64,000 nt of DNA, from NCBI GenBank assembly GCA_051294375.1, contig CM119263.1:28557280-28621279 (forward strand), read 5' to 3'. Of this stretch, positions 9,244-63,892 are shown one piece after another. The position numbers were made by a program, and so were the translations under genes. This stretch comes from Paraspadella gotoi. Taxonomy: Eukaryota > Animalia > Chaetognatha. Every line of letters begins with the position of its first letter. Positions within the stretch are counted from its first letter, which is position 1. The notes beneath the pieces were generated by a model that was not told where the DNA came from, made no database searches, and was given only the letters and a program-made list of their open reading frames with translations.

Positions 9244-9307
9244 CATGTCTCCCCGCGCAACCTTAAGCCGTTTTACAGGCGGAGAATGTTGGCTTTGGAC
9301 ATCTGCA

Positions 9308-10844: not shown

Positions 10845-10918
10845 TTCGTCCGAAAGCTGTGGCCTTTGGCAAGCTTCGTCTGAAAGCTGTGGCCTTTGGC
10901 AAGCTTCGTCGAAAGCTG
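10845..10918. repeat. 30-bp tandem repeat, about 2.5 copies (mirror at ~6002-6072)
   Basis: gaaagctgtggcctttggcaagcttcgtct repeated. Confidence 0.8.
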
Positions 10919-11622
10919 CAGGGTAGCCTGAGGGGGCAGTAGTAGGGGGGGGGCGAGACAGCGTCTGTAGCGAAGAAATTGAAACCGCGAATTCGGGAAG
11001 AGTAGGAACGAGATTAAAACCTTAATGAGAGGAATGATGTGGAATGAATGAGAAATGAACGAGAAATGAATAGAATTGACTTGGAATGAAGATAAATAGT
11101 CATAACATGAATAGAAATGAAATCAAATTAAATAGAAAAAAAAAAACGAAGAAGAATAAAAAAGAGAAGAAAAAGAAAGAGAAAAATTAACGAAATTAAA
11201 AAAAATAATGGAATGAAAAGAAATAAAGTGCTTGGTTTTTAATTATAGTTTTTGAACAAAGAAATTACGATTGACTGATCCCGGCATCCAGTGAAAACAA
11301 CTGTTGTAAAACTATTTTTCTTAATCTGTAATTTTAATATCGTTCTTTTACAATTAACAATTTTAACGATAAAGAAAAAAAAATATCATGCTTCAAAGTT
11401 AGCGTTTGTAGTTTATAAACATTTACAATTCGAGATCTGCTTTTTTTTTTCAATATTACAATTTATTGATTATTCTTTAAAAATGAAAGAATAAGAAACG
11501 AAAATTTAAGCAGAAACCCAAGTGCACAACGTAAAAAAAAAGTTATCTTCTCCGTCACCAAAATAATTATTAATTTTCAGCTATTTTTCACTAATTTTTA
11601 AGAGAAAAAAAAAGAAGAAAAA

Positions 11623-14483
11623 CTAAACTGGTTTCATCTCGCAAATGAATCCCGTGACTAGGACCAGACAGTCGCACTTCCAGGTGTGCCACTTTCCGGT
11701 GCTGGCGTCGATCACGAAGCAAGAGTTCACCTTGTCCTTGGCCATGTTGGAGAAAGTCTGCGTCCCCGCGGAGCCGCCGGTGCTGGTGCCGCCGCTGGTG
11801 CTGCTGCTGCTAGAACTACTACTGCTGCTGCTGCTTGAGCTGCTGCTGGTTATTTGCCGCTTGCCGATGGAGAAACTGCCAGAGTTTGAACCGCTCGTGC
11901 TGGATGTACCAGAGTTGCTGCTAGAACTGCTGCTCTGGCTGCTCTGACTGGTTTGGCTGTTCTGACTGGTCTGGCTAGTCTGACCACTCTGGCTAGTCTG
12001 ACCACTTTGACTGGTCTGGCTAGTCTGACTGTTGGTCTGACTGGTTTGACTCGTCTGCCCGGTCTGCCCGGTCTGTCCGGCGCTCGGCCCGGCGAGGTTG
12101 TCCTTGGTGCCGGTGTTCCCTCCGGCCGCCCACTTGAAGTTCTGAGTCTCCCGGCCGCCGATCCAAAAGTAGTTGCCAGGCGACGTCACGTTCAAGTCGT
12201 AGTTGATGATTTGAGTGACCAGGTCGTTCTCGGCCGCTGACTCGATGGATACCAGGCTCGCGCCTGTATGGTGGGGGTAAAAAATGGGAATTTTTTTCTG
12301 TCTCTCTCTGTCTCTTTCTCTTTCAGACTTTCTTTATTTCCTCATCTTTGTCTTTCGCGTCTTTATTTATGTCTTTTTTATTTATTTTTTTTTTTTTCTT
12401 TTTTTTTTCTCTCTTTCTTTTTTGCTATATTCTATTCTTTTTAGCTTTTTTAAAAAAATAAATAAACAACTTTTCATTTAAATACGTAAAATTTATACTA
12501 TAAACAAAATGACTAAATCAAACCCCTTATAAAATGTCCTTACTCCCACCTATCTCCCCTTCTTTCCCCGAATTCAAACTTACCCATTGTCTTGCAGTAA
12601 TCGTTTCCGAAGAACCAGTTCTTGTTGACCTTGATAAACTGGTAGCACTTGCCCATCCCCGGATGATAGAACCACCCATGATCCGGGCACAGATTCGATC
12701 TCCACTTCACGCCGTCCAATTTCGTCTCCATGAGATAATTGCGCGGGAAAGGGATGCGGAACCAAGTGGGTAGAGACTCTCCAGAAGAGGAGGAGGAGGA
12801 GGAAGAAGAAGAGGAACTTCCTCCGCCCCCGCTCGTGGAAGAGGAAGAGTTGCTGGAAGTGGAAGAGGAGGAGGAAGAGAAGGAGCTTCCGGAGGAGCCT
12901 CCAGTAGCAATCGCGCATTGATAAGCCTCGACGGTCTTGTTGTTCTTCTTTGTCCTCAAGACGGTACAGACTTGTCCCTGAGACTCATTTCCGTTAAGGA
13001 CATCGAAGGAATCCTCCAGATTGGACCAAAACGACGTCTCGCTGCTCCAGCCTCCCGTCTTGAGCAACGACGTCGCCTCCTCCAACTTTTCCGTGACGTT
13101 TTTCTCGTTTTCGTCCAACTCTGAGACGATGTTGTTGAAGTAGGTGTCGAGGGCCTTCTTGACGGCGGATCCGTCGTCGATGGTGATGTTGGAGGTCGTC
13201 TTGTTGATCTCCTCCAACTTCTTCTGCATGTCGCCCAGAGTGACGTTGACGTCCTTGAAGTCGGTCTTCAAGTTGGTGTTCAGATCCGCGACCTCCTTGA
13301 GCAGAGCCTTGGATTTGTTCTCGCAGTCCTTGACGTTGTTGGAGACGACGGAGACCGTGTCGTTGATCTTGTCGAGCCGCTTGGAGACGTCCTTGTACTC
13401 TTGAATCGGTTCCACTGGGTCGTTGGGGTTGCGGACCTTGCCCTGCCGCAACTTCTCCAGCATTTCGTTGAGGGCCTCGTGATTGGCTTTGGCCATCTTT
13501 CCCACGGCCACGTCGAACTCGTCCACGCTCTTCCGCAACTCGGTCAGGTTCTTGGCGACGTCTCCGTCGTGATTCTTCATCTTGTCCAGAGTGTGGTCGA
13601 GCTGCTTCTCCAGTTGTTCGTTGCGGATCTTGACGACGGCCGACTCGACGGTCTTGGCGTCCTTGGTCGAACTCACTTTCGTCGCCGTGGACGACTGCTT
13701 GAGCGAGGATAGCCGCTCGAAGACGCTGGTGCGGAAGGCGGTGCCGCTGCGCTGCATCGCCGCCAGCATCTCCTTGACGTCCTGCAGGTCCGATCCGTTG
13801 CAACTCTCGCGCTCCAAGCGGATCACGTCGTAATTAGTGATCTGGTAATGGGGCGGATATTTATTAGAATCGGTTTGTATATATATATCAAGAACTATTT
13901 CATAAGTACATTACACAAATTTCGGAAAAGATCGTTAGAACTAAAGCAAGTGCTTTTTGGTGAGATATATTAATTGTTTTAATTTTTTTTCTTAATCCTA
14001 GTATGTTGACTTTTTGGAAGGTTTATTTTCTTAAGGTTTATTTGTAAATTATCTAACTTTCTTTAATTAAGAGTATTTTACAGTACGAAAAAACCTCAAT
14101 AGATAAACGCAAAAAATATTGTTTTTTGTTTGCGCTTTTCATTAATTTGTTTTTTAATTTGTATTCCTCTCTTTCAACATTTTTGTCGTTCGTTCGTTTG
14201 TATATTTATTTATTCCCGTTGCTAAACTGACCTCGTGGCCATCGGCGTCGTAGAATCGCGTCCGATTTCCGTCGTCTCCATCTTCGGTTCCATTGCCCCG
14301 ACGCCAAGGCAAATGCGGGCAGCAAGAGAGGAAGAATGTGGCGAGAATGTCGATGAAGACGCAAATGATGACGATGATGAGGACGATAATGACGCAATTC
14401 ACTTTCCGGTTGATCCGTTTCACTCTCTTCCGCGGGTCTTCGTATTGGCGCGGGTTGTCCAGCGCCCCGCCGTAGGGCGGCAT
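11623..14483 (-). CDS. Type II transmembrane C-type lectin with coiled-coil neck, 716 aa, 3 exons (14483-14232, 13841-12584, 12263-11623)
   Basis: GT-AG introns with matching phases (0, 1). Basic cytoplasmic tail, then TM (VNCVIIVLIIVIICVFIDILATFFL), heptad-rich neck and Ser-rich linker. CTLD motifs: CPDHGW..KCY..W...CKTMGASLVSIESAAEND..FWIGG..FKW..C...GKW...C...FICE. Confidence 0.92.
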
Positions 14484-14986
14484 TTTTTTAGGTGAGGGGG
14501 TTTTTAATCCAAACGGGGAGAGGAAGCTGTTTCGTTTGCGATGTTGATGTTAATTTTCCTTTTTTTTTTTTGTTTTGTTTTCCAGTTTTATCCTTGTTTA
14601 TTTTTTCTTTTTCTTTTCATTTTGTTTGTACGATCATCGCTGGGCTTGTTGGGGCTGGAACAATTTAAAAGGTAGGATGTTGAACGAGAAGTAAATGTAA
14701 ATTGCTTATGTTCAGTTTAACTTCTTTGTTTTTATTTTCATACAAAATATTGACTATTGAATAAATGAAAAAAGATATATTTAGCCACTCCCGAGTTAAA
14801 CTCTTTTCTTAAAGGTTTTTTTTTTAATTACCTTTGGCCCCTTATCGATGTGGCGTTGTAGCTTTTTTCAAATTATTATTTTTTATTTTAATCCATAAAA
14901 GAAAATACGATGTAGTATATCCGTTTGACGCGTCAACACGATACCGTCTCTCCGCGACTGAAATCCTTCGTTACTTTTGACGTTCG

Positions 14987-15017
14987 TTACGTCATGACGT
15001 CATCTTTCTTGACGTCA
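14987..15017. promoter_or_regulatory. Cluster of three CRE/ATF-type sites about 500 bp upstream of the lectin ATG
   Basis: TTACGTCA 14987-14994, TGACGTCA 14995-15002, TGACGTCA 15010-15017. Confidence 0.45.
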
Positions 15018-15631
15018 AGCGGATTTCTGATCTAAAAAAAAAAATTTAAAAAGAGATAAATAAAAGTTAAAAGAGAAAAATCCGCGTTGGCGATCGAAAT
15101 AAAACTTCAAAGTTTCTGTGCGAATCGAGCGTCGACATTCGAGGCGACGCCCAACGACGAGTTAAGGAAAAAATCGCCTTTCTTCGTTGTCGTCTTCGTT
15201 TTCGTCGTCGTCGTCGTCATCGTTGGCGTATCCGTTGATTTTGCGATCGTCGACGTTGTCGTTGTCGCCGCCCTTTGTCAGCTATATTGGAGTAAAGTCT
15301 GTCAATTCTTTTTTTCAGAATCTCCTCTGTCATCGACGTCCTTGGACTTCACTATCCTAATTATGGCCTTCACTTATCTAACTCGTAATAACCTTTATTG
15401 ACATTTAAACCGCGGTCATCACAAATTAAATTTAAATAACAATTTTAATATTTTATTCATATGCCGGTATGTAATTTAATGAAACCCATTATTTATTTAT
15501 TACTTTAGCGCCATAGCCGGAACTTTCTCGAAAAAAAATTTGTCATCTTCAACTACTTGGTCATCGTTGTTGCATTTGTCATTGTTACTGTCGTCGCTCG
15601 TCCTTCAGTGGTTGTCATTCTTCGTCAAATT

Positions 15632-15685
<54 letters not shown>

Positions 15686-17922
15686 TCGTCTTCGTTGTCT
15701 TCGCCTAAGAATATTAGTCGACGCCTCTCTTTAGTTTGTCGCGCCCGACAATTAAAAAGCGAAAAAGAGGGCAGAGAGAGAGAGAGAGAGAGAGAGAAAC
15801 CGTCTTTTTACGGGTACACAACCTTATAAAATTATAACAAACGAACCGAAACTAATAAAAGTAAAAATGCATATGTTAATCCTTTTCTGACGGATAATTC
15901 TCTAATTTATTAAAAAATAAACAAACTTCAATATTCAATCTTCTTAATATGTTTCTTATTTTTGACAGTTATTTCGCATATCTCTAAGTATAAAAGGCTT
16001 TCGAAAATATTCTTGTCTTTCAAGGAAAAGTTACTTTTGTTTTCAGCATTAAGAATGATTTTTTAAAAGAAGATCTCACGAAAATAAATCAATTAAAATT
16101 ACCTGAGAGATGAAAACGGGACTAATCCCATCTCAAGTTTAAAAATTATCATATCATTTCGACAAAGGGTGTTGACATTACAAATTAAATAAACCGGTTT
16201 TTCAGGGTCGTTTTCGCTTTCCCTTTTTCCGGCAAAAATTGAGTAATTTTCCGAAACTAAAAGCGAGGACTCAATTCAATCTTAATTTAATTGTGCATCG
16301 GTTGTAATATTAACTTTTTAATTTATTATTAAACGCAAAAGTCATTTTTCGTTTGAAAATGAATAATGCAAAACTGCACAATATAAATACAGGCTAAATC
16401 CTAAAATATGGATACACCTTATAGTCGCAATGAATGGCAAGATTTATAGTTCTGCCACACACACCTTCGAGCAATGTTCATACTTTATATGTATGTTTGT
16501 TTGTTTGGATACAGTCGGTCGTGTACAAGAAGGGTAAACACCCTGCACAAAACCAAGGGGTGTTGCGCGGCCTGAAAACAAAAGGTTCAAAAATTATATA
16601 TATATAATATATATAAAACATTAGAAGAAAAAAAAATTAAACTCTTCAAGTCCCAATATAGAATATATTATGTAAAATAGTTTAGAATAACGACAAACCT
16701 TTTGTCTGGTGGTTAAGTTCAAAAAGACGAGATATTGACTAACTTTAAAGTGGCTCACTGGTTAATATTCGAACAAATTAGGGTGTGGACTCAATAACGG
16801 CATAACTCACGCATACGCAGAGTGTGAGACATAAGAGTGATAAATAGCACTTATCAAATAATCTGCACTGTCATGCAGGACAAGAGCTTGCAACACACTC
16901 GAGAGTCTAAGTGCGAATCGCTATGATTGCAGAGCGAGATGATACTATATATCGCTAATGCGCGGTGTGCATCTTTAGGACATTTGTCACCTGATACCAG
17001 AGCCATTGAATGACTGAGTATAATCGACTAATGACTCTGTCGAGTTCGCGTGGATCTGTTATAGTAAACACAATCTGCAATTTCGTACGTCATAGCGCAC
17101 GTACGCAGTGCACGAATCTGCCTAGCTCTAAATGCTTCAGTCTACTGACTAATCTCTTCTCTCTCGCTCCTCTTCTCTGCAGACACATCTTCATATACTC
17201 AACACACTCAAGTCCATCAGTGCTCTCGTCCTCTGCTATACTTCACCTCAAACTCCGGCCATACTCCTTCACATCATTACTTACTGCTGCAACTGAGACG
17301 CTTGCGAGTCAGGTTTAGTTCTGATGTCTCTCTGATCATGATTTTCTTGACATGATCCAGAAAACCGAGCAAACCGACAATCCCTTTTGCATCGAGGAAA
17401 GAAATTTTCCTGTTGACGTAGACCACAACCCAAAAAATCGTTGGACAAGAAAGAAAAAAAAACACTTTTTTTAATTTGAGGACAAAAAATAACAATTTGG
17501 GCAATGAGGTTGATACTATTGCCGTCTCGGGATAGCCAATTCCTTATTAATATGAAATGATTTCGTTATTGTTAGTTTGTTTGTTGTTTTTTTTATGTAT
17601 TGCTTATCCCCGGCAACGAGATAAAACACCAGAAGCAACAAAATTAGAGACGAAGAAAAGAACTTGTGACCGCAATTTATTCATGCCATTTTTTTCATTG
17701 AAATTAATCGTTCGCCTGGACATTTTACGAGACCTGACACGCCTACGAAGCGTGGCGCCATTTCGCCTCGTAGAAAACTATGATAATATTTGAATATATT
17801 TATATTTAATATATTATATTTAATAGATTTAATAGATATATTAATATATTATATTTAAATATATTATTATTAAATACATATTTTTCAAGGTCGCACAGGC
17901 AAAAGCTTTGTAACATTCACCA

Positions 17923-17953: not shown

Positions 17954-19741
17954 CACGCTGGCATAAACACTAAGGCGTAGTAAAATTTCTAATTTAACTT
18001 TAATTAAAAATTCTAAAAGTGCAGGAATGAACAACATTATTATTAATGAACATTTATGTAATTAAAAATAATTTATATAAATTTTTACAATTTACGCAGG
18101 TAGGCCCATATTTATACTAGTACTAAACCAATAAATGTTAAAAATTTCAAAACAGTTTTTTTCAAAGATATTTTTGCAGATTTGGATTCGTCATAAAAAA
18201 AAGTTGATAAAAAAGAAATATAACTCTTTTTGAAAATTCCTTCATTAAGTGGGTCAAAAATATAGAAAAAGCTATATTTTAAGCTGAAAAATTAACTTTT
18301 TATTATTAATATTAGTTTTTTTAATTTTAACCCATTAATGAAAGAATTTTTAAAAATGATTTATAATTTTCTTTTATCAACTTTTGACAAGGAATTCACA
18401 TCTGCCAATCAAAAAATAAGAAAAGCTTATTTTGAAATTTTTCGATTTTATAAGGATAGTACTAATATATAAATATAGCCTACTGCGAAATTGAAAAACA
18501 TAAAATTAATTTTTGTTTACAAAATTAATGTCACGATGGAAATGTAGTTCCATAATTGACTTTTAGAATTTTCGTATGTAACTGTTCAACATACGCCTTA
18601 ATAAACAACTTCAGTGACATGGGGGTGGTCACTGAGAGGTCATAAGCCAGCTGTCAAGGAGATAGCTCACTCCGCGGACTCCACTCACGTCTCCCCGTTG
18701 CCATAATATAATATTTCCTCGAAATCAATAATTAACAATTACATGAATTGGCTAAGGAACGTTTACTTGTATGATGAATAGGTTGGAAAGCATCCCTAAA
18801 GAATGCTTTGAATAATCAAGGTCTTATTATAGATAGGCGGTTAATAAAAACCGGCCCGTCACTCTTATCTAGAAAATTCCATAAATATCTAAATAAGTTT
18901 AAAAACATTTTTTCTTGTTATCTTTTTAAATTCAACTCTTATATACTTTTAACAAGAAAATTCGAATGAAAAATTCAAAATTTTACTGTCTCCAAATTAT
19001 CAGTGAAAATAAAACCTTAATTAAGAGCATTCGTTTGTGAAAATTTAATTATTTTATAATTTAATTAGGAATATTCACAAACTAGAAATACTACAATATG
19101 CAAATAAGACTAAGCGATCGATAGTCTGTTCACTTCCAATAGGTACAAAGAAAAAGGTTATTAAAAAAGTTATAAGACTGCTTTTGTTATTTTATTTACA
19201 TTTTTTGTTTTTAATAACTGTTAAGAATAATTATACTAATTTGGACAAGCAATTAAATTATAACTACAACGTTTTCCCACTCGAATGTTTTTTTCTTTTT
19301 ATTTCAAATGTTTATCGCCAGGGATCATGCCAGCCTTTCAATTCAAATAACAAATGAACACTACGTTTTTTTACGCCAATTTATTTACGCAAATCATAAA
19401 TTATTTTATCTCAGATTATTATTATTTTATTATTATTGCTTCATTATGATTACTATTTAAATTTTTTTAGACGCTAGCACTATTTTACCGCAAGCTTAAA
19501 TCGGCACGTAACGAATTAATATCCTTTCAATGTAATAAATTGCCGCTCACGTTTCGAATTTTTTATAAGTCACACAGAAATGAGTTTATGCAAGAAATGT
19601 TCACGGAATTATTAAGGCAAAAATGCGTTTCATTTTCGCTCTCATTCTTCCGATTTTATATTGGACATTGTTTTCCAATCAAGGTAAATACGTTTTGTTC
19701 GTCAAATAATAATGAATTTATTTAAAAAACGTTTTTGTTTG

Positions 19742-40017: not shown

Positions 40018-41430
40018 TTTCCCCTGTGTCATTAGACAAATAGTCGTTCTGCCTTGCAAAGCAAACATTTTCAAATATTCATCTGAATCTTGTTTTTTAT
40101 TCAGAATTCAGTCGTGCGAAAAACACGAGAGACTCGCATCTGCCATATTATTCTGGCATTTAGAAGAAAGATGACGGTAAGAAAGACAGAAAGAAAGAGA
40201 GAAAGAAAGAAAGAAAGTTAACAAAAAATAAAAGAATTCGTGATTTAAAAAAAAAAGAGATTATAAAAAATATGAGAGCTAAAGATAGACACAGACCACG
40301 ACGCCAATGACGACGACGACTTTAAACCTCAAAAACGGAAAAAGGATCTTTGACTTGTTTGAAAAGGTTTAAGGGGGAGACGGAGAAAAACTTCGTTCAT
40401 AATTCTTCGCCTCTCGTTGGGTGACTTAAGGAAAGGTTGAAGTGAGTTGGACAAAGTTGTGGTGAGTCGGTGAAGGATGAAGGGAAAGTCCAGAGGGAAT
40501 TAGGATGAAGGTTGAATGGTAAAGAAATGACGAGGTAAGTAAATGGAATCAGGTAGGGAAGAAAGCTGAGACATAATGGAAGGTAAAGATAAATATATCA
40601 AAAATTTAATACTTCAAACATCAAATTAGCCTAAAAAGATTTTTAATCCTTCACGGAATTTCTTTTTCACAAATCTTGAATTTTTAAATGCCTTTTGCTT
40701 TCTATGATTTGCCACTTTATGTTCTTGAGCAAATGTACGTAATTCTTTTCAAGGCCAAAACATAAAAAATTTAACCACTAATAATTTTTATTCCACGAAA
40801 ATTACTCCTCTTCTCTCGGACGAAGTTTCAACCATAAATTTTATCACAAGAACATTTTTTTTTCTTCTTTCCATCTCCTTCGCCGTCGCTCGGTAAATTG
40901 GCGGGAAAAATAGGTGGCTGCGCCCTATTTGTCGATCGTGTGTTCAAGTTTAAGGTCCTTCTATCACATTTGAAGATAATTTCCGACAATGTTGAAATCT
41001 TTATTTTTAAGATTTTTAATTTTTAAAATATTAAATTAAATACTCAATTTAAACTCGCCAAAGGTAAGGCGCTTCGCTTACTTGATTTTAAAAAAACCTG
41101 TCTTTTTTCTCCCTCGCCTCTTCAACCTTTATGAAAAAGTGAAAGGGAAGAGAAAAAAGAAAGAGGGAGTAAGGAGGGATTGAGGGGGGAGGGGGAGAAA
41201 AGGGGTTGGGGAGAAAACGAAGATAAGGAAAAAGGTTTCGTAAATATCATCTTCTGTGAGAAATGGAAGAAAAAAAACTGAAGGAAAAAAATGGAAGAAA
41301 AAAATGGAAGGAAAAGTCAAGGAGACGTCATTTTTTTGGGGGGGATGGGGGGGAAGGACTGAGGGAGGGGTGGGGGGGAGAGACAGTAGAGGTTAGCTTG
41401 GGATGGAATAGGGGATGGGAGAAAGAGAGG

Positions 41431-41626
41431 ATTGTGGCGCCTCACAATCCTATTGGCTCACAGGGGGAACGCACCATCCCAAGTGATGCGTTCCATCCAC
41501 AGTGCTAACGACCGTCCTAGGGTAACCGCGCCAGTGACTGGAGACGTAACTGAGGGTCGGAAGACCCCAAGGCAAACAGTGAGATGCCCTTTCTCAATGG
41601 GCATCACAGGCAACCCGGCTGTTGCC
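41431..41626 (+). ncRNA. Candidate structured RNA or repeat element (multi-hairpin)
   Basis: Five hairpins: ggaacgca/tgcgttcc, cagtgac/gtaactg, gggtc-ggaa-gaccc, gatgccc/gggcatc, ggcaac/gttgcc. Conserved blocks are shared with 38521-38692(-). Confidence 0.4.
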
Positions 41627-43146
41627 ATAGGGTTTCGTTACAGGATAGAGAGAGAAATATTCTCACGCAACTGACGAGATAAAAATATGTGTGTATCAAG
41701 ATGTGAGCGTGGTTGTGAGCATAAACGTGGGCATAGTAGAAGTGTGGGAAGAGAAAGAAGTGTGCGTGGGTTTTTAAAGGAAAACCGATTTAATTAAAAG
41801 AGTCGTGATTCGAAGAGAAAATTGTAGGGCGTCTAAATGTGGGAAAATTAACAGGTTTGCGACGACGACGTCAAAGGAACGGAAGAAAAAAAAATTGCAA
41901 AATGAATACCTCTACTTTGATTTCTTAAATTTTCAATTAGAGGATTGCCAGCGAGATAGCTAAATAGTTTGTTAGTTTTATACAGCTTAACTAACTATTG
42001 TTTTCAGACTAGCTATTAGCGATCCTGCGTGGAAGCTTGCTTGCAACAGCGTGTTACATCTGACGCAGCGATATTTCGATCTTCAGCGATCCCGGAACTT
42101 CTTTCTATTTACGATAATCTCGCATCTTCCTTTCCTAATTTTTCCCCTTTTTTTTTTCCTTTCCTCATTTTTCCCCTTTTTTTTCCTTTCCTTATTTTCC
42201 CCCAACCTTGACTTTTCTCCCTTCCTTTTTTTTGTCTCTCTATCCGGGAAGTCGACGTCGACTTGACTCTCATATATCCTGTTCCACTTTAAATAATCCC
42301 AAGTCCGAAGTCAAAAGCCGCCAATTCCACTTTTGCTGCCAAAAGTATTTTCTCTCTCTTTTCACCTCTCTCTCCCTCTCTCCCTCTCCTCTTCTCCCTC
42401 TCCCTCCCACCCTTCTCCCTCTCGCCATCCACGAATTCCATTTTTTTTACTCCAAATTTTCGATCCTTTTTTTTTTATCCTCATTTTTTTTAGTTTTTGT
42501 ATGAAACGAACATTTTTTTGGAACTTTACTTTAATAAAGTCAACGCCATTTTTTTCGTTAGACTAGCCTCGACTAATTTCATTACTTTCTCAAAATATAT
42601 CTTTTGATACAAGTATTATAAGTCAGTACCTCTCTATTCTCTTCCTACCGCTTTCCTCTTTTACAAAATTCTCATCTCCTTTTCTGTTTCTCCCCCGCCC
42701 TTCAAAACTTCTCTTCTCTGTTTTTCTCTCCTCACCGCGACTCCCAGAACTTCTCTTCCTCTCGGCTCCCCCGTCCCCCGTCCCCTTCTTCTTGCCCATA
42801 TGGGCTCCCTCCTCTCTCCCAATCCCCTCCCCTCTTTCTCCCCTCCCCATTCTTTGCCCCAAATTTTTCCGTTCTGCCAAATTCCAATTCTGACCACGAC
42901 TACGGAATAAAAAAAGAGAATCGAATCGCAAAAATCTCAGATTTTCGTCGAATCTTCTGTGGGGAAAAATCGGGACGCACAACCCAAAGGAATTATGCAT
43001 TAGGATAAGTTTAGCCGCGCCCGCGACGCCTCCCTGGCGCTGCTTTATATCGCGAGAAAGTCACGGAGCCACAAAAATGAGCATCTCTGAATTTTCGTCA
43101 GGTTTTTGCAAAGTTGCGACGCATCAATTTGCGCAGTCGCACTCAC

Positions 43147-43252
43147 CTCTGAGTCTCTGACATAAGCAAACTTGTAGCTGCGTCGATCCAAAGCATCTGT
43201 ATCGACGGAGCAGCTGAACCTGATTCTTTGTTTAAAAAAGTAACAGCAACAC
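43147..43252 (-). other. Isolated exon-like segment of an unidentified minus-strand transcript
   Basis: ctctttggattccag| 106 nt |gtgagt, with open frame CCCYFFKQRIRFSCSVDTDALDRRSYKFAYVRDSE. Partner exons not found. Confidence 0.3.
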
Positions 43253-46200
43253 CTGGAATCCAAAGAGAGAAACAAAAGAGCAGAACACACACAAAAAAAA
43301 TACTGAGATGAACTTTTTTTTTACTCTTTTCATTTTTCTTTTTTTTTTCTTTTTCCAGATTAAACTGTGATGCGGTAAAAGTGAGGAAATATTTAATTTA
43401 AAGCTAAAACCTCAATTACGATGATTTTGTAGAGTTAAAGACGAGAAATATGCAATGAGGGGAAAAAAAAGAAAATAAGAACCGGGAAAAAAAGGGAAAA
43501 AATTAGAAAATGAGAAAGAAAGTGAGAAAGAAGAGAAATTTACGATTTGGAAATGAGAGAGTAAGTTAACCTAACTCTTATTTTCATAAGACACCTTTGC
43601 ATTTTATTTGTCATTTTTACAATCTTTATATCTTTAAAAATATTGAATGCTCCTCAATAAATATAAACAAATTTTCAAAGTCATCCCTAGCTATCTTCGC
43701 TTTTCCCAAAAAATACTTCAACGTCAGGTCTAATTCTATTTTCATCCTTTTCCAAACTTGAAGGTGAGTTTTTTTCGTTTGCGAATCAGAAGCGAGGAAA
43801 AAAAAGAAAATTATTCTGGCATTTAGAAGAAAGATGAAACGGTAAGCAAACGAACGCAAAGAAAGAGAGAAAGAAAAGAAAGAAGTTAACCAAAATAACA
43901 GAATTCCGCTGATTTCCAAAAAAAAAGAGATTATCAAAAATACTGAGAGGCTAAGATAGATCACCAGACCACGACCCATACGACGACTGACTTTTACACC
44001 TCAAAACGGAAAAAGGATCTTTGACTTGTTCTGAAAAGGTTTAAGGGGAGCACGGAGAAAACTTCGTTCATAATTCTTCGCCGTGCGTCTGGGTGATCTA
44101 CAGGAAGGGTTGAACGTGAGTCTGGACAAAGTTGTGGTGAGTCGGTGAAGGATGAAGGATAAGGGAAAGTCCAGAGGGAATTAGGATGAAGGTTTGAATC
44201 CGGTAAAGAATGACGAGCGTACAGGTAAATGGAATCCAGAAGGGAAGAAAGCAGACATATATGAAGATACAAGTGTACAATCATATATCAAAATTTACAT
44301 AGCTTCAACATGCAAATTGAGCGCTACGATTTTTTAATCCTTCACGGAATTTCTTTTTTCACAATCTTGAATTTTTAAATGCCTTTTTGGCTTTCTATGA
44401 ATCTTGCCCAATTTATTAGCAAGTAAATATTCCTTTTCAACAGGCAAAACATAAAAAATTTTAACCACTAAATAATTTTTATTCACGAAAATTACTCTCT
44501 CTCTCGGACGAAGTTTCAACCATAAATTTATCACAAGTAACAGTTTTTTTTTCTTTCTTCTTCGATTCCTTCGCCGTCGCTCGGTAATTGGCGGGAAAAT
44601 CGGTGCTGTCGCCCTATTTGCGTCGATCGTGTTTCAAGTTAAGGTCCTTTCTATCACCTTGAACGATAATTCCCGACAATGTTGAAATCTTATTTTTAAG
44701 ATTTTTAATTTTTTAAAATATTAAATTTAAAATACTCATTTAAACTCCGCCAAAGGTAAAGGCGCTTCGCTTACTTGATTTTAAAAAAACCTCGTCTTTT
44801 TTCTCCCTCGCCTCTTCAAACCTTTATAAAAGTGAAAGGGAAAGAGAAAAAGAAAGGAGGGAGTAATGGAGGGATTGAGGGGGAGGGGAGAAAAAGGGGT
44901 TGGGGCAGACAAAGAAGATAAGGAAAAGGTTTCGTAAATAGTCATCTTCGTGTGAGAAATGGACAAAAAAAAACTAGAAGGAAAAAAATGAAGAAAAAAT
45001 GGAAGGAAAAGTCAACGGAGACGTCATTTCTTTTATGGGGCGGGCTGGGGGGGAAGGACTGAGCGGAGGAGGCTGGGGGGGAGACAGTAGAGGTTAGCTT
45101 GGGATGGGAATAGGGATTGGGACGAAGAGAGGAATTGTGCGGCCCCACAATCCCTATTGTGTCACAAGGGAGGAACCACCATCCCAAGCTATGCGTTCCG
45201 TCCACGTTCTACGACTTCCCGCGTTAACGAGACCGTCCTAGGGTAACCGCGCCAGTGACTGGAGACGTAACTGAGGGCGGAAGACCCCAAGGCAAACGTG
45301 AGATGCCCTTTCTGCATGGCATCAACAGGCACACCCCGGCTGTTTGCCATTAGGGGTTTCGTTACAGGATCAGAGAGTAAATATTCTCACGCAACTTGAC
45401 GAGATTAAAAATATGTGTGTATCAAAGATGTGAGCGTGGTTGTGAGCATAAAACGTGGGCATAGTAGAAGTGTGGGAAGAGAAAGAAGTGGTGCGTGGGT
45501 TTTTAAAGCAGGAAACCGATTTAATTAAAGAGTCGTGTTCGAAGAGAAAATGTTTAGGGGGTCTAAATGTGGGAAAATTAACAGGTTTGCGACGACGACG
45601 GTCAAAGGGAGACGGAAGAAAAAAAAATTGCAAAATGAATACACCTCTACTTTGATTTCTTAAAATTTTGCAATTAAGAGATGTGCCAGCGAGATTAGCT
45701 AATAGTTTGTTATTTATACAGCTTTAACTAACTATGTTTTTCAGGACTAGCTATTAGCGATCCTGCGTGAAGGCTTGCTTGCAACAGCGTGTTACTCTGA
45801 CGCAGCGATATTTTCGACTTTCGCGACCCGGAACTTCTTTCCTTATCTTACGATAATCTCGACATCTTCCCTTTCCTAATTTTTCCCCTTTTTTTTTCCT
45901 TCCCTCATTTTTCCCTTTTTTTTCCTTTTCCTTATTTCCCCAACCTTGACTTTTCTCCTTCCCTTTTTTTGTCTCTCTATCCGGGAAGTCGACGTCGACT
46001 TGACTCTCATATATGCCCTGTTCCAGCTTAAATAATCCAAGTCCGAAGTCAAAAGCCCGCCAATTCCACTTTTGCTGCCAAAAGTATTTTTTTCTTCTTT
46101 CTTCTTTTCACCTCTCTTCCCTCTCTCCCTCTCCCTCTTTCCCTCTCCCTCACCACCCTTCTCCTCTCTCGCCATCCGCGAAGTTCTATTTTTTTTCTAC

Positions 46201-47738
46201 TCCAAATTTTCGATCCATTTTTTTTGTATCCTCATGTTTTTCTCTATGTTTTTGCGGTGAAACGAACATTTTTTTGAAAAAATTTACTTTAATAAAAGTC
46301 GACAGTAGCGCAATTTTTATTCGTGTAGACTAGCCTCGACTAATTTCTATTACTTTCTCAAAATATAGTCTTTTGATACAGTATTATCAAGTCAGTCCCT
46401 ACCTTCCTACGCTTCCTCCTTTCTAAATGCTCATCCTACCCTTTCTCTGTTTCCCCGCCCAAAATTCTCTTCATTTCTTTTCTCCCCCGCCTCTGTCCAC
46501 AAACTTCTCTCATCTCTTCTGGTCCCGTGCCGCGCGTCACCCTTCACTCGTTCGCACTCTTCGTCAATCTCCCCCGTCCCGCTCCCTCTCTCCTACCTCT
46601 CTCCCAATCCCCTCCCCTCTTTCTCCACCTCCCCATTCTTTGCCCCAAATTTTCTCCTGCTCTGCCAAATTCCATTCCCTGCACCACGACTGCACGAATA
46701 AAAAAAAGAGAATCGAATCGCAAAAGATCTCAGATTTTCGTCGAATCTCTGTGGGGAAAAATCGGGACCGCATAACCCAAAGGAATTAGTCAATTAGGAA
46801 AGTTTAGCCGCGCGCCGCGACGGCCTCCTGGCGCTGCGTTTGATTATGCGCGAGAAGTCAGCGGGAGCCACAAAAATGAGCATGCTGCTCGAATTTTTCT
46901 CAGTTTTTGGCAAAGTTGCGACCGCAGTCAATTTGCGCAGTCGCACTCACCTCTGAGTCTCTCTGGACATAAGCAAAGCTTGTAGCTGCGTCGATCGCAA
47001 AGCATGCTGTATCTGACGGACAGCGCTGAACCTGATTTCTTTGTTTAAAAAAGTAACAGAAACACCCTGGAATCCAAAGAGAGAAACAAAGAGCAGAAAC
47101 ACACACAAACAAAATACTGAGATGAACTTGTTTTGTTACTCTTTTCATTTTTCTTTTGTTTTTCTTTTTTCCAGGATATAAACTGGTGATGCCGGTAAAG
47201 GTGAGCGAAATTATTTAATTAAAGCTTAAAACCTCATTACGATGATTTTGTAGAGTTAAAGACGAGAAAATATGCAATTAGGCGGAAAAAAAGAAAATAA
47301 GAACCGGCGGGGAAAAAAAGGAAAAGAAATTAGAAAATGAGAAAGAAAGTGAGAAGAGAGAAAATTTACGATTTTGGAAATGAGATGAGTAGTTTACCTA
47401 ACTCTTTTTTTCATAAGACACCCTTTGCATTTTATTTGTCATGTTTGTACAATTTTATATCTTTAAAAAATATTGAATGCTCCTCAATAATATAAAACCA
47501 AATTTTCAACATAGGTCATGAACCCGTAGCTATCTTCGCTTTTCCCAAAAAATACTGTCAACGTCAGGTCTAATTCATTGTTCATTCCTTTTCCAAACTT
47601 GAGGTCGAGTTTTTTTCGTTTGCGAATCAGAAGCAGGAAAAAAAAGAAAGCGCGAAAAAAGATGGAAAGAAAAAAAGATTGCAACGAGAGAGAGAAGATA
47701 GAGAGAGAGAGAGNNNNNNNNNNNNNNNNNNNNNNNNN

Positions 47739-53909: not shown

Positions 53910-55928
53910 GACCATGTCACGTCGTGTCATGTCATGTCATGTCATGAACTCAACGGAAAAACGAACGAGAGATTCGTAAGAAAAAGCGAGAATGCAAAAA
54001 AAAATCTGCTCGACAAATTCTCTCTGAAAAAAAGGCGACGTTTTATCATTAAAAATTCATTAATTATTTTTAAATCTTTTAAACTTTTTTCCGATGGAAA
54101 TCGACTACGACAACAACAACAACAACAACGACGACGAATTCTCTCGAGGTCGTAAACAATCCTCGCGATTCTCTTATCTTCTCTCGAGTGACAGCGAACA
54201 TTTTTCCAACGTCGAACCTGTTCGTCTCTGGAGTGGCCTGTTCGTTTCTAGAAAGGCCTGTTCGTTCCGAGAAAGGCCTGTTCGTTTCTAAAGTGACAAG
54301 TCTGTTTCTGATTGGCCTGTCTTTTTCTAGCCTTGTTCTTCTTGACACGCCTTGTTCACTTCCACTCTCNNNNNNNNNNNNNNNNNNNNNNNNNNNNNNN
54401 NNNNNNNNNNNNNNNNNNNNNNNNNNNNNNNNNNNNNNNNNNNNNNNNNNNNNNNNNNNNNNNNNNNNNNNNNNNNNNNNNNNNNNNNNNNNNNNNNNNN
54501 NNNNNNNNNNNNNNNNNNNNNNNNNNNNNNNNNNNNNNNNNNNNNNNNNNNNNNNNNNNNNNNNNNNNNNNNNNNNNNNNNNNNNAATCTAATCTTTCCT
54601 TTTTCGCTCTTTCTCCCGCCTTTTCCTTTCCGCTTTCCGCCTCTAAATTGAATCGACGCTTGGCGGCGCGACAATCGTAAAAAAGTAAACAAGTAAACAA
54701 ACGAGGCGCGCATAAAAAAAGTATTGAATAAAAAACTCGTTTTCTCGATTTTCCGACTCCCATTTTGCTTCGCCTCTTTTTATTCTACGTTGCGGTCTTT
54801 CCTCGTGATTCAGAATTCACAATTTGAAAAATAGAAAATCAGGAATTCCTNNNNNNNNNNNNNNNNNNNNNNNNNNNNNNNNNNNNNNNNNNNNNNNNNN
54901 NNNNNNNNNNNNNNNNNNNNNNNNNNNNNNNNNNNNNNNNNNNNNNNNNNNNNNNNNNNNNNNNNNTTTTTTTTCTCCTGATTTTCTTTTTACATTTTCG
55001 TAGAAAGTGAAAATGGGGCAATTGTTCCATCAAGAGTCGGAAATGTTCCGAGTTTGCCGGAAATCGTTTGGTTGGCGCGTTTAAGTGAAATACGGGTAAA
55101 CTAATTTAGCGAACAATCGTTCTTAAATCAGAACGAACAACAACAACAACAACAACAANNNNNNNNNNNNNNNNNNNNNNNNNNNNNNNNNNNNNNNNNN
55201 NNNNNNNNNNNNNNNNNNNNNNNNNNNNNNNNNNNNNNNNNNNNNNNNNNNNNNNNNNGGGCTCTTTTGAGTCTTCCTTGCTGGCCCTTACTTAACGGCA
55301 GCACTTTCCTTTCTTATAGTTTGTGGAGGTAGTTATAGTTTTAGTTAGTTTATACATACCAAGCCACCTCTCCCCCCTCACTCACCCTCCCTCACCTGAA
55401 ATCCATCCAAAAGGCGAAGCCGCCTGCAGCCGACGACGGACTTTGTCCAATGGGCGTGTTCACTTTTTCCGGAAGAGATCACTCGGGGAGTTGAGGATCG
55501 AGGGCGCGGAAGTCGAAGAGCAGGGATGAGGAGGAGGAAGGAAGGTCGTCGACTTCATCCAGCTTCTTGGAGGATCTGATGACGACGAGGAGACGGCGTT
55601 GCTGCGGGAAAAGGAGGGGGGAGTGGGATTTTCGATGGTCTGTTCTTGTTGTCTGTCTGTCTGTTGTCTGTTTGTTTATTTTTATAATCTTCCTTGTCTT
55701 CCTTCATAAGGTTAAGAATTCTCCATCTGCCTGTCTATCTATCTTGTCTGTCCACATACTGTCGGTCTCATATGTTTGACGTTATGAAGACTATCTGTCT
55801 TATGTACATCTGGTATAATCGTCTCTCTGTAAGGGTTCCCTTGACTACAGGGTCTATCCGGTATTTTGTCTGGTTTGTTCTATTTCTCTCTCTCTTCTCT
55901 CCTTTCTCTTCTCTCCTCTCTCTCTCTT

Positions 55929-55964
<36 letters not shown>

Positions 55965-56703
55965 CTCTATCTCTCTCCTCCTTCTCTCTCTTCTCCCCTC
56001 CTTTCTCACCGATAGTCCAGCACGGCGAATAACGAGCAAAGGTACGACTTGTCGTATTCTTTTTAAATTCGCATAAAACTGGAGCGAATGTGCAATTTGG
56101 TTCTGTCGTTGGATATCGTTGAGGCAAAAAAGATTCGTCGCACTCTGGTCAGTACATTTTTTTTTGGGGGGGGGGGGCTGTCGAGAGTTTTCGATTTGGA
56201 TCGTTCCTTGGAATTGTCCTTGGCATTGTACGCTTTTGTCCTTTTGTCTTGTGGAATATTGTTCCTTGTCCTTGTAATTGTTTCCGCTTTTGTTTTTGAG
56301 AAACTAATTGATTTTATTTTTAAATTCTTGGCTTCGAAGAACTGTTTTTGTTGTTGTTGTTGTTGTTCGTTCTGATTTAAGAACGAATTGTTCGCTAAAT
56401 GAGTTTTTACCCGTATTTCACTTAAACGCGCCCCACCAAACGATTTCCGGCCAAACTCGGGAACGTTTTCCGACTCTTGCTGGAACAATTGCCATTTTCA
56501 TTTTCTTACGAGGAATGAAGAAGAAATCAGGAGAAAAAAAACCGGGAAGTTTTCCGGCACCTCTCGCACAATCGCCCAAATTTGCGTCGGTTTCCTTTGC
56601 GGAATTTTCCGGCGAAAACAACGACATTAAAACGACGAGACAAAAGAGATTCGAGAGAGAGAGAGAGAAGAGAGAGGAGAGAGAGAGAGAGAGAGAGAGA
56701 GAT

Positions 56704-56742
<39 letters not shown>

Positions 56743-57061
56743 TTCTGATTTTCTATTTTTCAAATTGCTGAATTCTGAATCACTTAGGAAAGACCGCAAA
56801 CGTAGAAATAAAAGAGGCGAAGCAAATGGAAGTTCGAAAATCGAGAAAAACTGAGTTTTTTATTTCAATACTTTTTATGGCGTCGCCTCGTTTTGTTTTT
56901 ACTTGTTTACGTTTTTTACGATTGTGCGCGCAAGCGTCGATTCAATTTAGAGGCGGAAAAGCGGAAAGGAAAAGGCGGGAGAAAGAGCGGAAAAAGGAAA
57001 GATTTAGATTCGCCTCAACGCTAATGAAGAGAAAAGAGAGAGAGAGAGAGAGAGAGCGAGA

Positions 57062-57131
<70 letters not shown>

Positions 57132-57619
57132 AGTTGAACAAGGCGTGTCAAGGGAAGAACAAGGCTAGAAAAAGACAGGCAATTCAGAAACAGACTTGTC
57201 ACTTTAAGAAACGAACAGGCCTTTCTCGGAACGGAACAGGCCTTTCCTAGAAACGGAACAGGCCCACTCAGAGACGAAAACAGGTTTCGACGTTGGATGA
57301 AAATGTTCGCTGTCACTCGAGAGAAGATAAGAGAATCGCGAGGATTGTTTCGACCCGAGGAGAATTCGTCGTCGTTGTTGTTTGTGTGTTTGTTGTCGTA
57401 GTCGATTTCCATCGGAAAAAAGTTCTAGAAAGATTTAAAATAATTGAAATGAATTTTTTAATGATAAAACGTTCGCCTTTTTTTGCAGAGAGAATTTGTC
57501 CCCCCCGAAAGCAAAAGAAAACGATTTTTTTTTGCATTTCCGTTTTTTCTTACGAATCTCTCGTTCGTTTTTTCCGTTGAGTTCATGATGACATGAACAT
57601 GACACGACGTGACATGGTC
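53910..57619. repeat. Inverted repeat with ~1.25-kb arms (53910-55158 and ~56346-57619) and a ~1.2-kb spacer
   Basis: gaccatgtcacgtcgtgtcatg at 53910 is the reverse complement of 57598-57619, and tcttaaatcagaacgaacaacaac matches 56350-56382. The left arm is gapped at microsatellites; the right arm is indel-rich. Confidence 0.9.
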
Positions 57620-62789: not shown

Positions 62790-63890
62790 AGCCCAACAGC
62801 TGCCACACAGGCGACTTTCGCCCTGGCGACGGTGCAGAAGTCTTTGCTCTTGAGAGGAAAGAAGACGATGAGGAATCTCTCGGCGGTGACGAGAGTCACG
62901 ATCCAAACGGCGCCGTTGAAGAAAACGTCGATGACGAAAGGCCAGACTCGGCAGAGGACGGGGGAAGTGTCCCAGATGGTGACGTTGACGACGGCCTGTT
63001 TGGGTTTGAATTAAATTGGATCGATGAGAAAGAAAGTATTTGCGGGATTGATTGATTGATTAATTGATTTATTGATTTATTGGTTTATTGATTTATAGAT
63101 TTTTTAAAATAGAGGAAGGATTTTTTTAACAATTTTCTTTAATTTAGTTCATGCAATATATAATTGATGGGCTAATTTTTTAACTCATCAATATATTAAT
63201 ATGTTGATAAGGCGCTAAGTGGGCAGAAGATGACTATCCATAACTTCTATAACGCCCTCTAGCAGACATGGAACGGGTCCTGGGCTTGGAACCAGGCTTG
63301 AGGGTTTGCCACGCCCCCAAGGCGGCTTACGGCCGTCCTCACTCTTCCCGCAGGGTAGGTACCGGGTTGGGATTGAACCCGGTACCTAGTGGTCATGAGC
63401 TGATGGCTTTACTCAATGAGCCACCGGGTCACAACTGAAAGAGTCCTGCTTATAGGCGGGGTGAACCGAGGCAATGCCCGACTACAAATATTATATTAAT
63501 TCTTTATTCTTTTATTTAATAATTTATGCCTTAATTTGCGGAAATAGAAATACATAAATGTCGCTAAACTTTTCTTAAAAAACGATAGGATTGTTTTTTT
63601 CTAATTATAACCAAATATTTGATATTTATCTATTAGTTAAAACAAGACACAACATCAATAAGTTTACTCTCTTTCCTGCAAGAAACAATCGGTTGTGTTG
63701 GTGAGGATCGCTCCAGTGTCAAAGAGCGCCAAGCAACAGAGGATGAAGGCCGTTGATCTCTTGGAGGCAAATGGACAGAGAACCATGAAGGAGGCAGCGT
63801 TACCGATAGCACCGCAGTAGCAGATGACGACCAAGGGAAGAAGTTGGCGCGGGGAGGTGCAGGAGACGTCCGTCAACACCTCCAACGAGG

Positions 63891-63892
<2 letters not shown>
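60940..63892 (-). CDS. Rhodopsin-family GPCR (same subfamily), N-terminus missing; exons 63892-63676, 62995-62788, 62461-62236, 62065-61939, 61847-61753, 61681-61566, 61073-60940
   Basis: TM1 GAIGN, TM2 STAFILCCLALFD, TM3 LCRVWPF..WIVTLVTAERFLIVFFPLKSKDFCT, TM4 CNIP, TM5 YGILP..FNILII, TM6 MLLAVSFTFLVCCTPW, TM7 LSHAINFLVY and helix 8 GKGFRE. The last exon and stop are provisional. Confidence 0.9.
63251..63337 (-). ncRNA. Twister-ribozyme-like motif (type P1), possibly degenerate
   Basis: Minus strand reads GACG-gccg-UAA-GCC-GC-[CUUGGGGG/CCCUCAAG]-[CCUG-GUUCCAAGCC-CAGG]-15 nt-GCUA-GAGGG-CGUU. P3, P4, L4, T1 (UCC/GGG) and T2 (GC/GC) fit; the P2 register is imperfect. Confidence 0.6.
63345..63430 (-). 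mobile_element. tRNA-derived Pol III head (A and B boxes), SINE-like
   Basis: Minus strand GGTGGCTCATTGAGTAAAGC (A-box-like) and GGTTCAATCCC (B-box, 63379-63369) at tRNA spacing. No proper acceptor stem, so not a tRNA gene. Confidence 0.7.

What the first reader, a model, noticed from the sequence alone, without database searches (positions are those of the whole stretch)
63210..63485. tRNA-like Pol III head fused to a twister-like ribozyme inside a GPCR intron
Seen: a ~275-bp GC-rich island in an AT-rich intron, on the same strand as the host GPCR. 5' to 3' it has a TATAA ~25 nt upstream, an A-box, a B-box within an 11-bp hairpin (GGTACCGGGTT/AACCCGGTACC), then UAA-GCC-GC, an 8-bp P3, P4 with loop GUUCCAAGCC, and GAGGG. 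Known: this order and the GUNNCAAGCC/GAGGG pair are the twister core, found at the 5' ends of RTE-type retrotransposons; Schistosoma Sm-alpha is a tRNA-SINE carrying a hammerhead. Inference: a non-autonomous tRNA-head plus twister element, a twister analogue of Sm-alpha or retrozymes. Cleavage at U63329/A63328 would also cut the host pre-mRNA. P2 is out of register, so this copy may be dead.
Basis: partly seen in the sequence, partly recalled or inferred. Interest (0 to 1): 0.85.

Follow-up and report, generated by a model that had tools for sequence, protein, structure and literature searches.

The report
Twister ribozyme in a mini-retrotransposon LTR
This 285-base island is a lone end-repeat (LTR) of a very abundant miniature retrotransposon in an invertebrate; it carries a tRNA-like promoter and a conserved twister-ribozyme motif predicted to cut the element's RNA into unit-length pieces, likely only when two copies pair, a combination we did not find described.

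Summary
The motifs are real but the frame is different. The unit is 63486-63202 (minus strand, 285 bp). It begins 56 nt upstream of the tRNA-like head, has TG...CA ends and a 4-bp AATA duplication, and is a dispersed repeat of very high copy number. A related element in two biofilm runs reads LTR - about 120 nt - LTR, with a TGG primer-binding-site-like start. So it is a solo LTR of a Helenus-type TRIM, not a SINE. The twister core is not chance, but it fits the type-P5 permutation: the upstream GAGGA (63340-63336), not the downstream GAGGG, supplies the catalytic G and the pseudoknot. This core is nearly invariant across two lineages (3 of 53 sites vary, against 48 of 232 elsewhere), while the GAGGG region is variable. 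P1 is a loopless, invariant palindrome, CGGCCG. Best reading: an animal, Pol III-driven LTR retrozyme using a twister, probably as a double ribozyme between its two LTRs. Cleavage, circles and Pol III transcription are untested; Rfam score is below threshold and P2 is imperfect.

The parts
63202..63486 (-). Solo LTR, 285 bp, TGTAG...CAACA, of a high-copy TRIM family
   Evidence: Depth steps and loose ends at 63202 and 63486; ends read
63198..63201 (+). 4-bp target-site duplication AATA (left)
   Evidence: chance match 1.3-2.7% in these AT-rich flanks
63487..63490 (+). 4-bp target-site duplication AATA (right)
63431..63486 (-). U3-like part upstream of the head; holds TATAA at 63454-63450, which the biofilm relative lacks
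   Evidence: (loose ends at 63439)
63357..63430 (-). tRNA-derived Pol III promoter: A-box-like 63423-63412, B box 63379-63370; no cloverleaf; B box sits in a 13-bp hairpin 63388-63356
   Evidence: no T4 run anywhere in the LTR on this strand
63279..63344 (-). Type-P5 twister ribozyme motif (predicted)
   Evidence: variant tables
63341..63344 (-). P2 partner strand: pairs with GCC 63326-63324 as G.U, C-G, one-base bulge (63343), C-G
   Evidence: 63343 is free (A, C or U); one relative contig has a bulge-free 3-bp P2 (X12 record 12)
63336..63340 (-). GAGGA: predicted general base G63340 and T1 pseudoknot partner of loop UUCC (three Watson-Crick pairs)
   Evidence: 18 of 18 natural twisters with this loop use GAGGA
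63330..63335 (-). Loopless palindromic P1, CGGCCG: one pair plus GGCC loop in a monomer, 6-bp duplex between two copies
   Evidence: 0 of 6 sites vary against 7 of 9 in the P3 loop, p=0.006; duplex -10.7 kcal/mol
63328..63329 (-). Predicted cleavage site U^A
   Evidence: position in the twister consensus; not tested
63297..63321 (-). P3: 8-bp stem, hypervariable 9-nt loop
   Evidence: G.U at 63317/63301 is G-C in all covering contigs of the relative
63279..63296 (-). P4 (5 bp) and loop UUCCAAGC; T2 pairs with GC 63323-63322
   Evidence: 0 of 18 sites vary; the same 18-mer occurs in Rfam-grade bacterial twisters
63202..63278 (-).
   Evidence: 15 of 39 sites vary in 63278-63240, including the first G of GAGGG in 11-16% of host-family depth
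62789..62995 (-). Host GPCR exon downstream of the intron (TM3 region)
   Evidence: Pfam 7tm_1 E 1.4e-8; AG acceptor at 62997-62996
63670..63891 (-). Host GPCR exon upstream of the intron (TM1-TM2 motifs; limits approximate)
   Evidence: translation; no Pfam hit

Best explanation
This is a solo LTR of a high-copy Helenus-type miniature LTR retrotransposon whose LTR carries a tRNA-derived promoter followed by a conserved type-P5 twister motif that is predicted to cut the element's RNA in both LTRs, likely as a double ribozyme. Shown: the LTR anatomy, the high copy number, an LTR-internal-LTR junction with a PBS-like start in a relative, and conservation of the type-P5 core. Inferred: Pol III starts near 63430 in the 5' LTR and reads through (no T4 in the LTR) into the 3' LTR; the two CGGCCG palindromes pair to give one 6-bp P1 shared by two twisters, each using GAGGA from one LTR and UAA-P2-P3-P4 from the other; two cuts release an RNA of about 400 nt (285 + about 122) with 5'-OH and cyclic-phosphate ends that still holds the promoter copy from the 3' LTR; it is circularised, primed by a tRNA (Trp-like PBS) and copied and integrated by a Gypsy element, as proposed for plant LTR retrozymes. 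A single copy (the circle, or this solo LTR in the GPCR intron) would cut poorly, which would spare the host pre-mRNA.
For: Ends and TSD. 7,221 and 3,000 contigs laid in two host DNA runs, summed depth 0.66-2.4 million inside against 192 outside. X12 record 9 goes from the LTR 3' end through 142 letters into the LTR 5' part; 3 X10 contigs run from CA into C-TGGTGAGCCC, 9 of 10 letters like the tRNA-Trp PBS of Gypsy-32 and Helenus-2_SyJa. Matches Helenus on 4-bp TSD, LTR length and box motifs (PMC10886601). Type-P5 reading: T1 three Watson-Crick pairs; 18 of 18 natural twisters with this loop use GAGGA; natural 3-bp P2 exists (L022, L037); core 3 of 53 sites variable against 48 of 232, p=0.005; 1 of 16 around GAGGA against 9 of 16 around GAGGG, p=0.003; all P2 and most P3 changes keep pairing. 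P1 is dispensable for twister cleavage (PMC5408937 passages). Hammerheads with a weak helix cleave as dimers (PMC7761336 passages). Two wasp Helenus LTRs hold, by eye, a type-III hammerhead at the same place.
Against: No cleavage, transcript or circle data. Rfam Twister-P5 score 16.3 bits, E 0.45, far below 37.6. P2 needs a bulge in most copies, and the twister review warns that changes in P2 length may disrupt the active site. Without pseudoknots the monomer twister fold is -14.4 against an MFE of -25.3 kcal/mol, and the double-twister fold is -47.7 against -50.6 for two monomers and -62.7 for the best (inactive) dimer fold. The internal region and PBS were seen only in the biofilm relative (one collapsed contig, three short ones), not in the host; no PPT was visible; only one TSD could be read. 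One terminal P3 pair is broken in part of the relative's contigs (63314). The core was delimited, and variant tables under-report contig ends and copies under 80% alike. An invariant palindrome could serve RNA dimerisation without catalysis. No loopless palindromic P5 twister among 27 phage pattern hits, so no natural precedent.
Confidence: 0.55

Rival explanations
1. Helenus-type LTR with an active monomeric mini-twister: C63335-G63330 closes a GGCC tetraloop, each LTR cuts on its own, and solo copies cut host introns.
For: P1 is dispensable; the 6-nt linker tethers GAGGA next to UAA; all conservation data for the core apply equally. This is a variant of the best explanation and about 0.25 of its 0.55.
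Against: The four GGCC bases never vary, unlike the P3 loop (0 of 4 against 7 of 9, p=0.02); the monomer fold lies 11 kcal/mol above the MFE before pseudoknots; thousands of cutting copies in genes would be costly (inference).
Confidence: 0.25
2. Helenus-type LTR in which a twister-derived fold is catalytically silent and kept as a structural signal, for example a palindromic dimerisation or packaging site recognised by the helper Gypsy Gag; replication is by the ordinary linear R-region route.
For: Imperfect P2, sub-threshold Rfam score, competing folds; most Helenus LTRs read have no ribozyme-sized sequence after the tRNA part and evidently do without; 6-nt GC palindromes start dimerisation in retroviruses (recalled).
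Against: The bases that are invariant are the catalytic and pseudoknot ones (UAA, GC, UUCCAAGC, GAGGA), in two lineages; P2 variants keep or improve pairing.
Confidence: 0.3
3. One reading: tRNA-headed SINE with a type-P1 twister from an RTE 5' end, using the downstream GAGGG.
For: Motif order fits type P1; twisters sit at RTE 5' ends (PMC8501958, PMC7761336 passages); tRNA head plus RTE 5' UTR SINEs are common (PMC5786205), and one could be the ancestor of the insert; one X9 contig leaves the element at 63431, the head's first base.
Against: The unit extends 56 nt above the head with TG...CA ends, 4-bp TSD and no tail; PBS-like start and internal region in the relative; P2 0 of 3, no twister-P1 hit; GAGGG region most variable; an active ribozyme would cut off a SINE's head.
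Confidence: 0.05
4. Non-autonomous DNA transposon (Ginger-like TGT...ACA ends, 4-bp TSD; features recalled) that captured a SINE fragment.
For: Ends TGT...ACA and 4-bp TSD.
Against: No terminal inverted repeat beyond a few bases; direct-repeat junction with TGG start in the relative.
Confidence: 0.03

Closest known systems
Helenus TRIMs (TRIMp3; Kojima 2024, PMC10886601)
   Same: tRNA-derived A/B boxes inside a TG...CA LTR; 4-bp TSD in animals; LTR length within range (longest 323 bp); short internal part starting with a tRNA PBS; many solo LTRs; no functional tRNA.
   Different: About 150 nt after the head holding a twister motif; the paper's text never mentions a ribozyme in Helenus and no LTR in its data file holds the twister loop string (line breaks could hide one); host lineage not among its listed close relatives as far as one search shows.
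Plant LTR retrozymes (Cervera 2016, PMC4918200)
   Same: Non-coding LTR element, 4-bp TSD, PBS, ribozyme inside each LTR, Gypsy helper, proposed circular intermediate.
   Different: Plants, type-III hammerhead, tRNA-Met PBS, 300-600 bp internal part, no Pol III promoter described; here an animal, a twister, an internal Pol III promoter, about 120 nt internal part.
Helenus-2_SyJa / Helenus-2_SyUm LTRs (Synergus wasps; data file of PMC10886601)
   Same: By eye: tRNA-like promoter followed by a complete self-cleaving ribozyme in the LTR; tRNA-Trp PBS; two short shared motifs near the LTR 3' end.
   Different: Ribozyme is a type-III hammerhead; not noted in the paper; my reading was not computed.
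Type-P5 twister ribozymes (Rfam RF02684)
   Same: Order P2'-GAGGA-P1-UAA-P2-GC-P4; identical P4/L4 18-mer to Rfam-grade metagenomic examples.
   Different: P1 has no loop and is palindromic; long P3 present; P2 of 3 bp with a bulge; in an animal retroelement; 16.3 bits only.
Dimeric minimal hammerheads of Penelope elements, newt and viroid RNAs
   Same: A short helix that cannot close in one copy is supplied by pairing of two copies (PMC7761336 passages; palindrome detail recalled).
   Different: Different ribozyme class; here only a prediction.
Perere-3 / RTE twister variants (PMC8501958) and Schistosoma Sm-alpha
   Same: Twister or hammerhead serving retrotransposition.
   Different: Non-LTR; ribozyme at the very 5' end, type P1 with P1 made from the target site; here internal to an LTR and type P5.

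Membership tests
Helenus TRIM | LTR with TG...CA ends | tested here: met
Helenus TRIM | 4-bp TSD (animal families) | tested here: met
   AATA both sides, one locus only; chance 1.3-2.7%
Helenus TRIM | tRNA-derived box A (TRGCY..YGG) and box B (GGTTC) in the LTR | tested here: met
   TGGCT and GGTTC present; the YGG of box A is absent
Helenus TRIM | Two LTRs around a short non-coding internal part with PBS | tested here: met
   in the biofilm relative only: 142 letters between LTR parts, TGG start; not seen for the host among the 15 of 122 joints shown
Helenus TRIM | Polypurine tract before the 3' LTR | not testable with these tools
   letters of the internal part were not displayed
Helenus TRIM | Pol III transcription | not testable with these tools
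   only contigs available
Twister ribozyme type P5 | Rfam RF02684 at gathering score | tested here: not met
   16.3 bits against 37.6; penalised for P3 insert and missing P1 loop
Twister ribozyme type P5 | Conserved core bases and pseudoknots T1, T2 | tested here: met
Twister ribozyme type P5 | Stems P2 and P4 | tested here: inconclusive
   P4 5 of 5; P2 3 pairs with a bulge, bulge-free in one relative contig
Twister ribozyme type P5 | P1 as a closed hairpin | tested here: not met
   one pair in cis; 6 bp only between two copies
Twister ribozyme type P5 | Self-cleavage at U^A | not testable with these tools
   needs an assay
Twister ribozyme type P1 | P2 and P1 formed with the downstream GAGGG; RF03160 hit | tested here: not met
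   P2 0 of 3; no hit at E<=10 while 5 control matches score 35-48 bits
LTR retrozyme | Type-III hammerhead in the LTR | tested here: not met
   no hammerhead hit; works like one on my reading, but with a twister
LTR retrozyme | Unit-length circular RNA | not testable with these tools
   no raw RNA reads held
tRNA-derived SINE (bipartite RTE type) | Starts at the tRNA head, ends in a LINE-like tail, long variable TSD | tested here: not met

The most novel reading that the evidence does not exclude
A natural double twister: two loopless type-P5 twisters in the two LTRs of a Pol III-transcribed animal TRIM share one palindromic P1, so only full-length two-LTR transcripts are cut and circularised while circles and solo LTRs are spared; Helenus elements with swapped ribozymes (hammerhead in wasps, twister here) would form an unrecognised animal class of LTR retrozymes.
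Probability: 0.3. Interest if true: 0.85.

Novelty: new variant of a known kind. Interest (0 to 1): 0.72.

Why it matters
Retrozymes with LTRs are described mainly from plants and with hammerheads; eukaryotic twisters with an assigned role sit at the 5' ends of RTE LINEs. An animal LTR element that pairs an internal Pol III promoter with a twister would show that the ribozyme class is interchangeable in LTR retrozymes, give a role to a type-P5 twister in a eukaryote, and resolve the puzzle of a ribozyme downstream of its own promoter (the 3' LTR keeps the promoter). A shared palindromic P1 would be a dimer-dependent twister, a compact two-copy switch that is easy to test and of use in RNA engineering. 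It also warns that tRNA-head repeats called SINEs may be solo LTRs.

Tried and rejected
No whole genome is held, so no genome-wide alignment, consensus, R-scape or TSD survey. No second copy in the window. ARAGORN: no tRNA. Rfam at gathering score over the whole window: 0 hits. P4 pattern scans gave no relative of the element: 2 viral and 47 metagenome loci, 18 of the 49 being prokaryote-type twisters used as controls. Loopless type-P5 pattern in viral contigs: 27 hits, 0 palindromic, 0 with a full P2. GAGGA-palindrome-UAA 19-mer in prokaryote genomes: 5 hits, none with a twister loop. MAFFT misaligned the window copy with natural P5 twisters, so no covariance model was built. No RNA holder on record; X9 may be DNA and contigs cannot show starts or levels, so nothing is concluded on expression. 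Runs X14 and X15 (other organisms) hold no relative at 80%; no proof of absence. X11 holds two short low-depth pieces, possibly carry-over; not used. Sigma-70 scan irrelevant. Host not placed beyond 'animal without a close named relative'. Three look-ups of earlier findings were empty. Roth 2014 and Lunse 2017 were not held. Rejected: SINE, type-P1 wiring, tandem retrozyme of the Sm-alpha kind at this locus (single copy, unique flanks), MITE, conserved TATA box.

Full report
Observation. The island lies on the minus strand between two exons of a rhodopsin-family GPCR on the same strand: the downstream exon hits Pfam 7tm_1 (E 1.4e-8), the upstream one shows TM1/TM2 motifs by eye only. A twister-core descriptor matched once in the window, in 1 of 20,000 shuffles of the element and in none of 60 block-shuffled windows. 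ARAGORN finds no tRNA. The host is an animal with no close named relative: a conserved carrier in the window is mostly about 60% identical to named bilaterian proteins, with two unnamed ones at 75 and 82%.

Boundaries and copy number. No genome was held, so contigs of public runs were laid on the region. In two DNA runs of the host, from two studies, 7,221 and 3,000 contigs were laid; summed depth is 0.66-2.4 million inside against 192 in the flank (X1) and 86,000-451,000 against 16 (X5). The tool warns that this is no copy number; it shows a dispersed family, plausibly thousands of copies. X1 may be the source of the window. Depth and loose ends put the ends at 63486 and 63202, 56 nt above the tRNA-like head. 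The unit reads TGTAG...CAACA and is flanked by AATA on both sides (chance 1.3-2.7%). These are LTR marks, not SINE marks.

A full-length relative. Two biofilm metagenome runs hold a related lineage with fixed differences (10 and 12 contigs laid). One 320-nt contig (X12 record 9, depth 13.6) runs from the LTR 3' end through 142 other letters into the 5' part of the next LTR; about 20 of those are probably the diverged LTR start, leaving about 122 nt internal (inference). Three X10 contigs continue from CA into C-TGGTGAGCCC, a PBS-like start that matches 9 of 10 letters of the tRNA-Trp PBS listed for Gypsy-32 and Helenus-2_SyJa. Caveats: collapsed contigs, a metagenome, PPT not displayed, and no such junction among the 15 of 122 joints shown for the host.

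Class. Kojima 2024 (PMC10886601; parts 1-4 of 6 of the text and supplement parts 1 and 5-10 of 11 read, plus a term search of the whole file) defines Helenus: TRIMs with tRNA-derived boxes in the LTR, 4-bp TSD in animals, PBS and PPT, Gypsy helpers, many solo LTRs. The element fits every feature I could test. The text mentions ribozymes only in a reference.

Which twister. With the downstream GAGGG (type P1) P2 has 0 of 3 pairs and T1 needs a wobble; Rfam twister-P1 gives no hit at E<=10 although natural type-P1 controls score 35-48 bits. Rfam instead aligns Twister-P5 to 63343-63280, at only 16.3 bits. In that permutation the upstream GAGGA gives three Watson-Crick T1 pairs. Of 49 loci fetched with the P4 motif, 18 (15 distinct) parse as twisters, and all 18 pair loop UUCC with GAGGA; 7 of 12 sent to Rfam pass the Twister-P5 gathering score, the other 5 being type P1. 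Two have a 3-bp P2. In the element P2 is G.U, C-G, bulge, C-G.

Selection. Pooling variable sites (5% threshold, any run; contigs deeper than 5; one contig of depth 2 dropped): 3 of 53 core sites vary against 48 of 232 elsewhere (p=0.005); P4 and its loop 0 of 18; P3 stem 2 of 16 against loop 7 of 9; 1 of 16 sites around GAGGA against 9 of 16 around GAGGG (p=0.003). The first G of GAGGG is A in 11-16% of host depth. Of the three core changes, two keep pairing (G.U to A-U in P2; G.U to G-C in P3) and one opens the last P3 pair. The bulged base is free, and one relative contig has a bulge-free GCC/GGU P2. Limits: the core was drawn, linkage is mostly unknown, and this is not a formal covariation test.

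P1. Between GAGGA and UAA stand six bases, CGGCCG, a palindrome with no loop; none varies (0 of 6 against 7 of 9 in the P3 loop, p=0.006). In one copy it gives one pair and a tetraloop; twisters do not need P1 (PMC5408937 passages). Between two copies it gives a 6-bp duplex (-10.7 kcal/mol) whose two ends can each serve a ribozyme, with P2 also formed across copies in a nested fold. Energies without pseudoknots: monomer twister -14.4 against MFE -25.3; double twister -47.7 against -50.6 for two monomers and -62.7 for the best dimer fold, which is inactive. So the dimer narrows the gap but is not favoured outright. Hammerheads with a weak helix cleave as dimers (PMC7761336 passages). No palindromic loopless example among 27 phage pattern hits.

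Mechanism. Shown: solo LTR, family, relative with internal part, conserved core. Inferred: Pol III start near 63430; read-through, since the LTR has no T4 run; cuts in both LTRs; RNA of about 400 nt; circularisation and tRNA-primed copying by a Gypsy helper as modelled for plant retrozymes (PMC4918200 passages). In a SINE an active ribozyme would remove the head (PMC5786205 section 23); in a TRIM the 3' LTR keeps it. If two copies are needed, this intronic solo copy would rarely cut the GPCR pre-mRNA. TATAA is not kept in the relative.

Precedent and novelty. Twisters are reported at RTE 5' ends (PMC8501958 and PMC7761336 passages). LTR retrozymes are described as mainly plant and hammerhead-based (bioRxiv 10.64898/2026.07.22.740005 passages). 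A search for missing twister permutations found none (PMC10085705 passages). Nine full-text searches listed no paper on a twister in an LTR or TRIM or on a dimeric natural twister; the library lacks most subscription papers, Roth 2014 and Lunse 2017 were not held, Repbase was not searched, and bioRxiv supplements are closed. PMC6765202 and PMC13570524 were seen as passages. In Kojima's data file two wasp LTRs (Helenus-2_SyJa, -2_SyUm) hold by eye a complete type-III hammerhead right after the tRNA part, which supports ribozyme-bearing Helenus as a recurring design; this was not computed.

Verdict. New variant of a known kind: Helenus-type solo LTR (about 0.9), real type-P5 twister under selection (about 0.7), active in unit-length processing (0.55), double-ribozyme mode (0.3). 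Interest 0.72.

Noticed in passing
PMC10886601 supplement DataS1, Helenus-2_SyJa-LTR and Helenus-2_SyUm-LTR: By eye a complete type-III hammerhead (CUGAUGA...GAAA, 7-bp stem I, complementary loops) follows the tRNA-like promoter; not mentioned in the paper. These LTRs use a tRNA-Trp PBS and share two short motifs with the 3' end of this element.
   Followed up: partly
window:63268-63431, X9 record 23: A 1,416-nt contig leaves the element at the first base of the tRNA-like head; could be a head-starting (SINE-like) derivative or a chimera.
   Followed up: no
window:62996-63668: The apparent GT donor (about 63667) and AG acceptor (62997-62996) of the GPCR intron are out of phase; a micro-exon, another donor or an assembly error is possible.
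   Followed up: no
window:17890-17980 and 18007-18572: A B-box-like fragment (GGTTCAATCC, plus strand) of another repeat sits beside a 566-bp AT-rich foldback element.
   Followed up: no
window:1058-8426 / 8557-15796; 40147-43809 / 43810-47649; 53910-57619: Large inverted and tandem duplications at 85-89% identity; the first holds a coiled-coil ORF with a C-type lectin part (PF00059), one copy frame-broken. May be diverged paralogues or unmerged haplotypes.
   Followed up: no
window:33831-34940 (-): Long single-exon ORF of a calcium-binding mitochondrial carrier (SCaMC), about 60% identical to named animal proteins.
   Followed up: partly
window:58895-59850 (+): Second GPCR-like gene facing the host GPCR, by membrane-helix motifs; no Pfam hit on single exons.
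   Followed up: no
L010, L011, L032, L035, L041: Metagenome loci with two twisters 300-470 bp apart; L035 has a twister-P1 and a hairpin ribozyme on the opposite strand, as in virus-like circular RNAs.
   Followed up: no
window:63237-63394, run X11: A run labelled as another organism holds a 161-nt piece with 6 differences at low depth; carry-over or horizontal spread, not decided.
   Followed up: no
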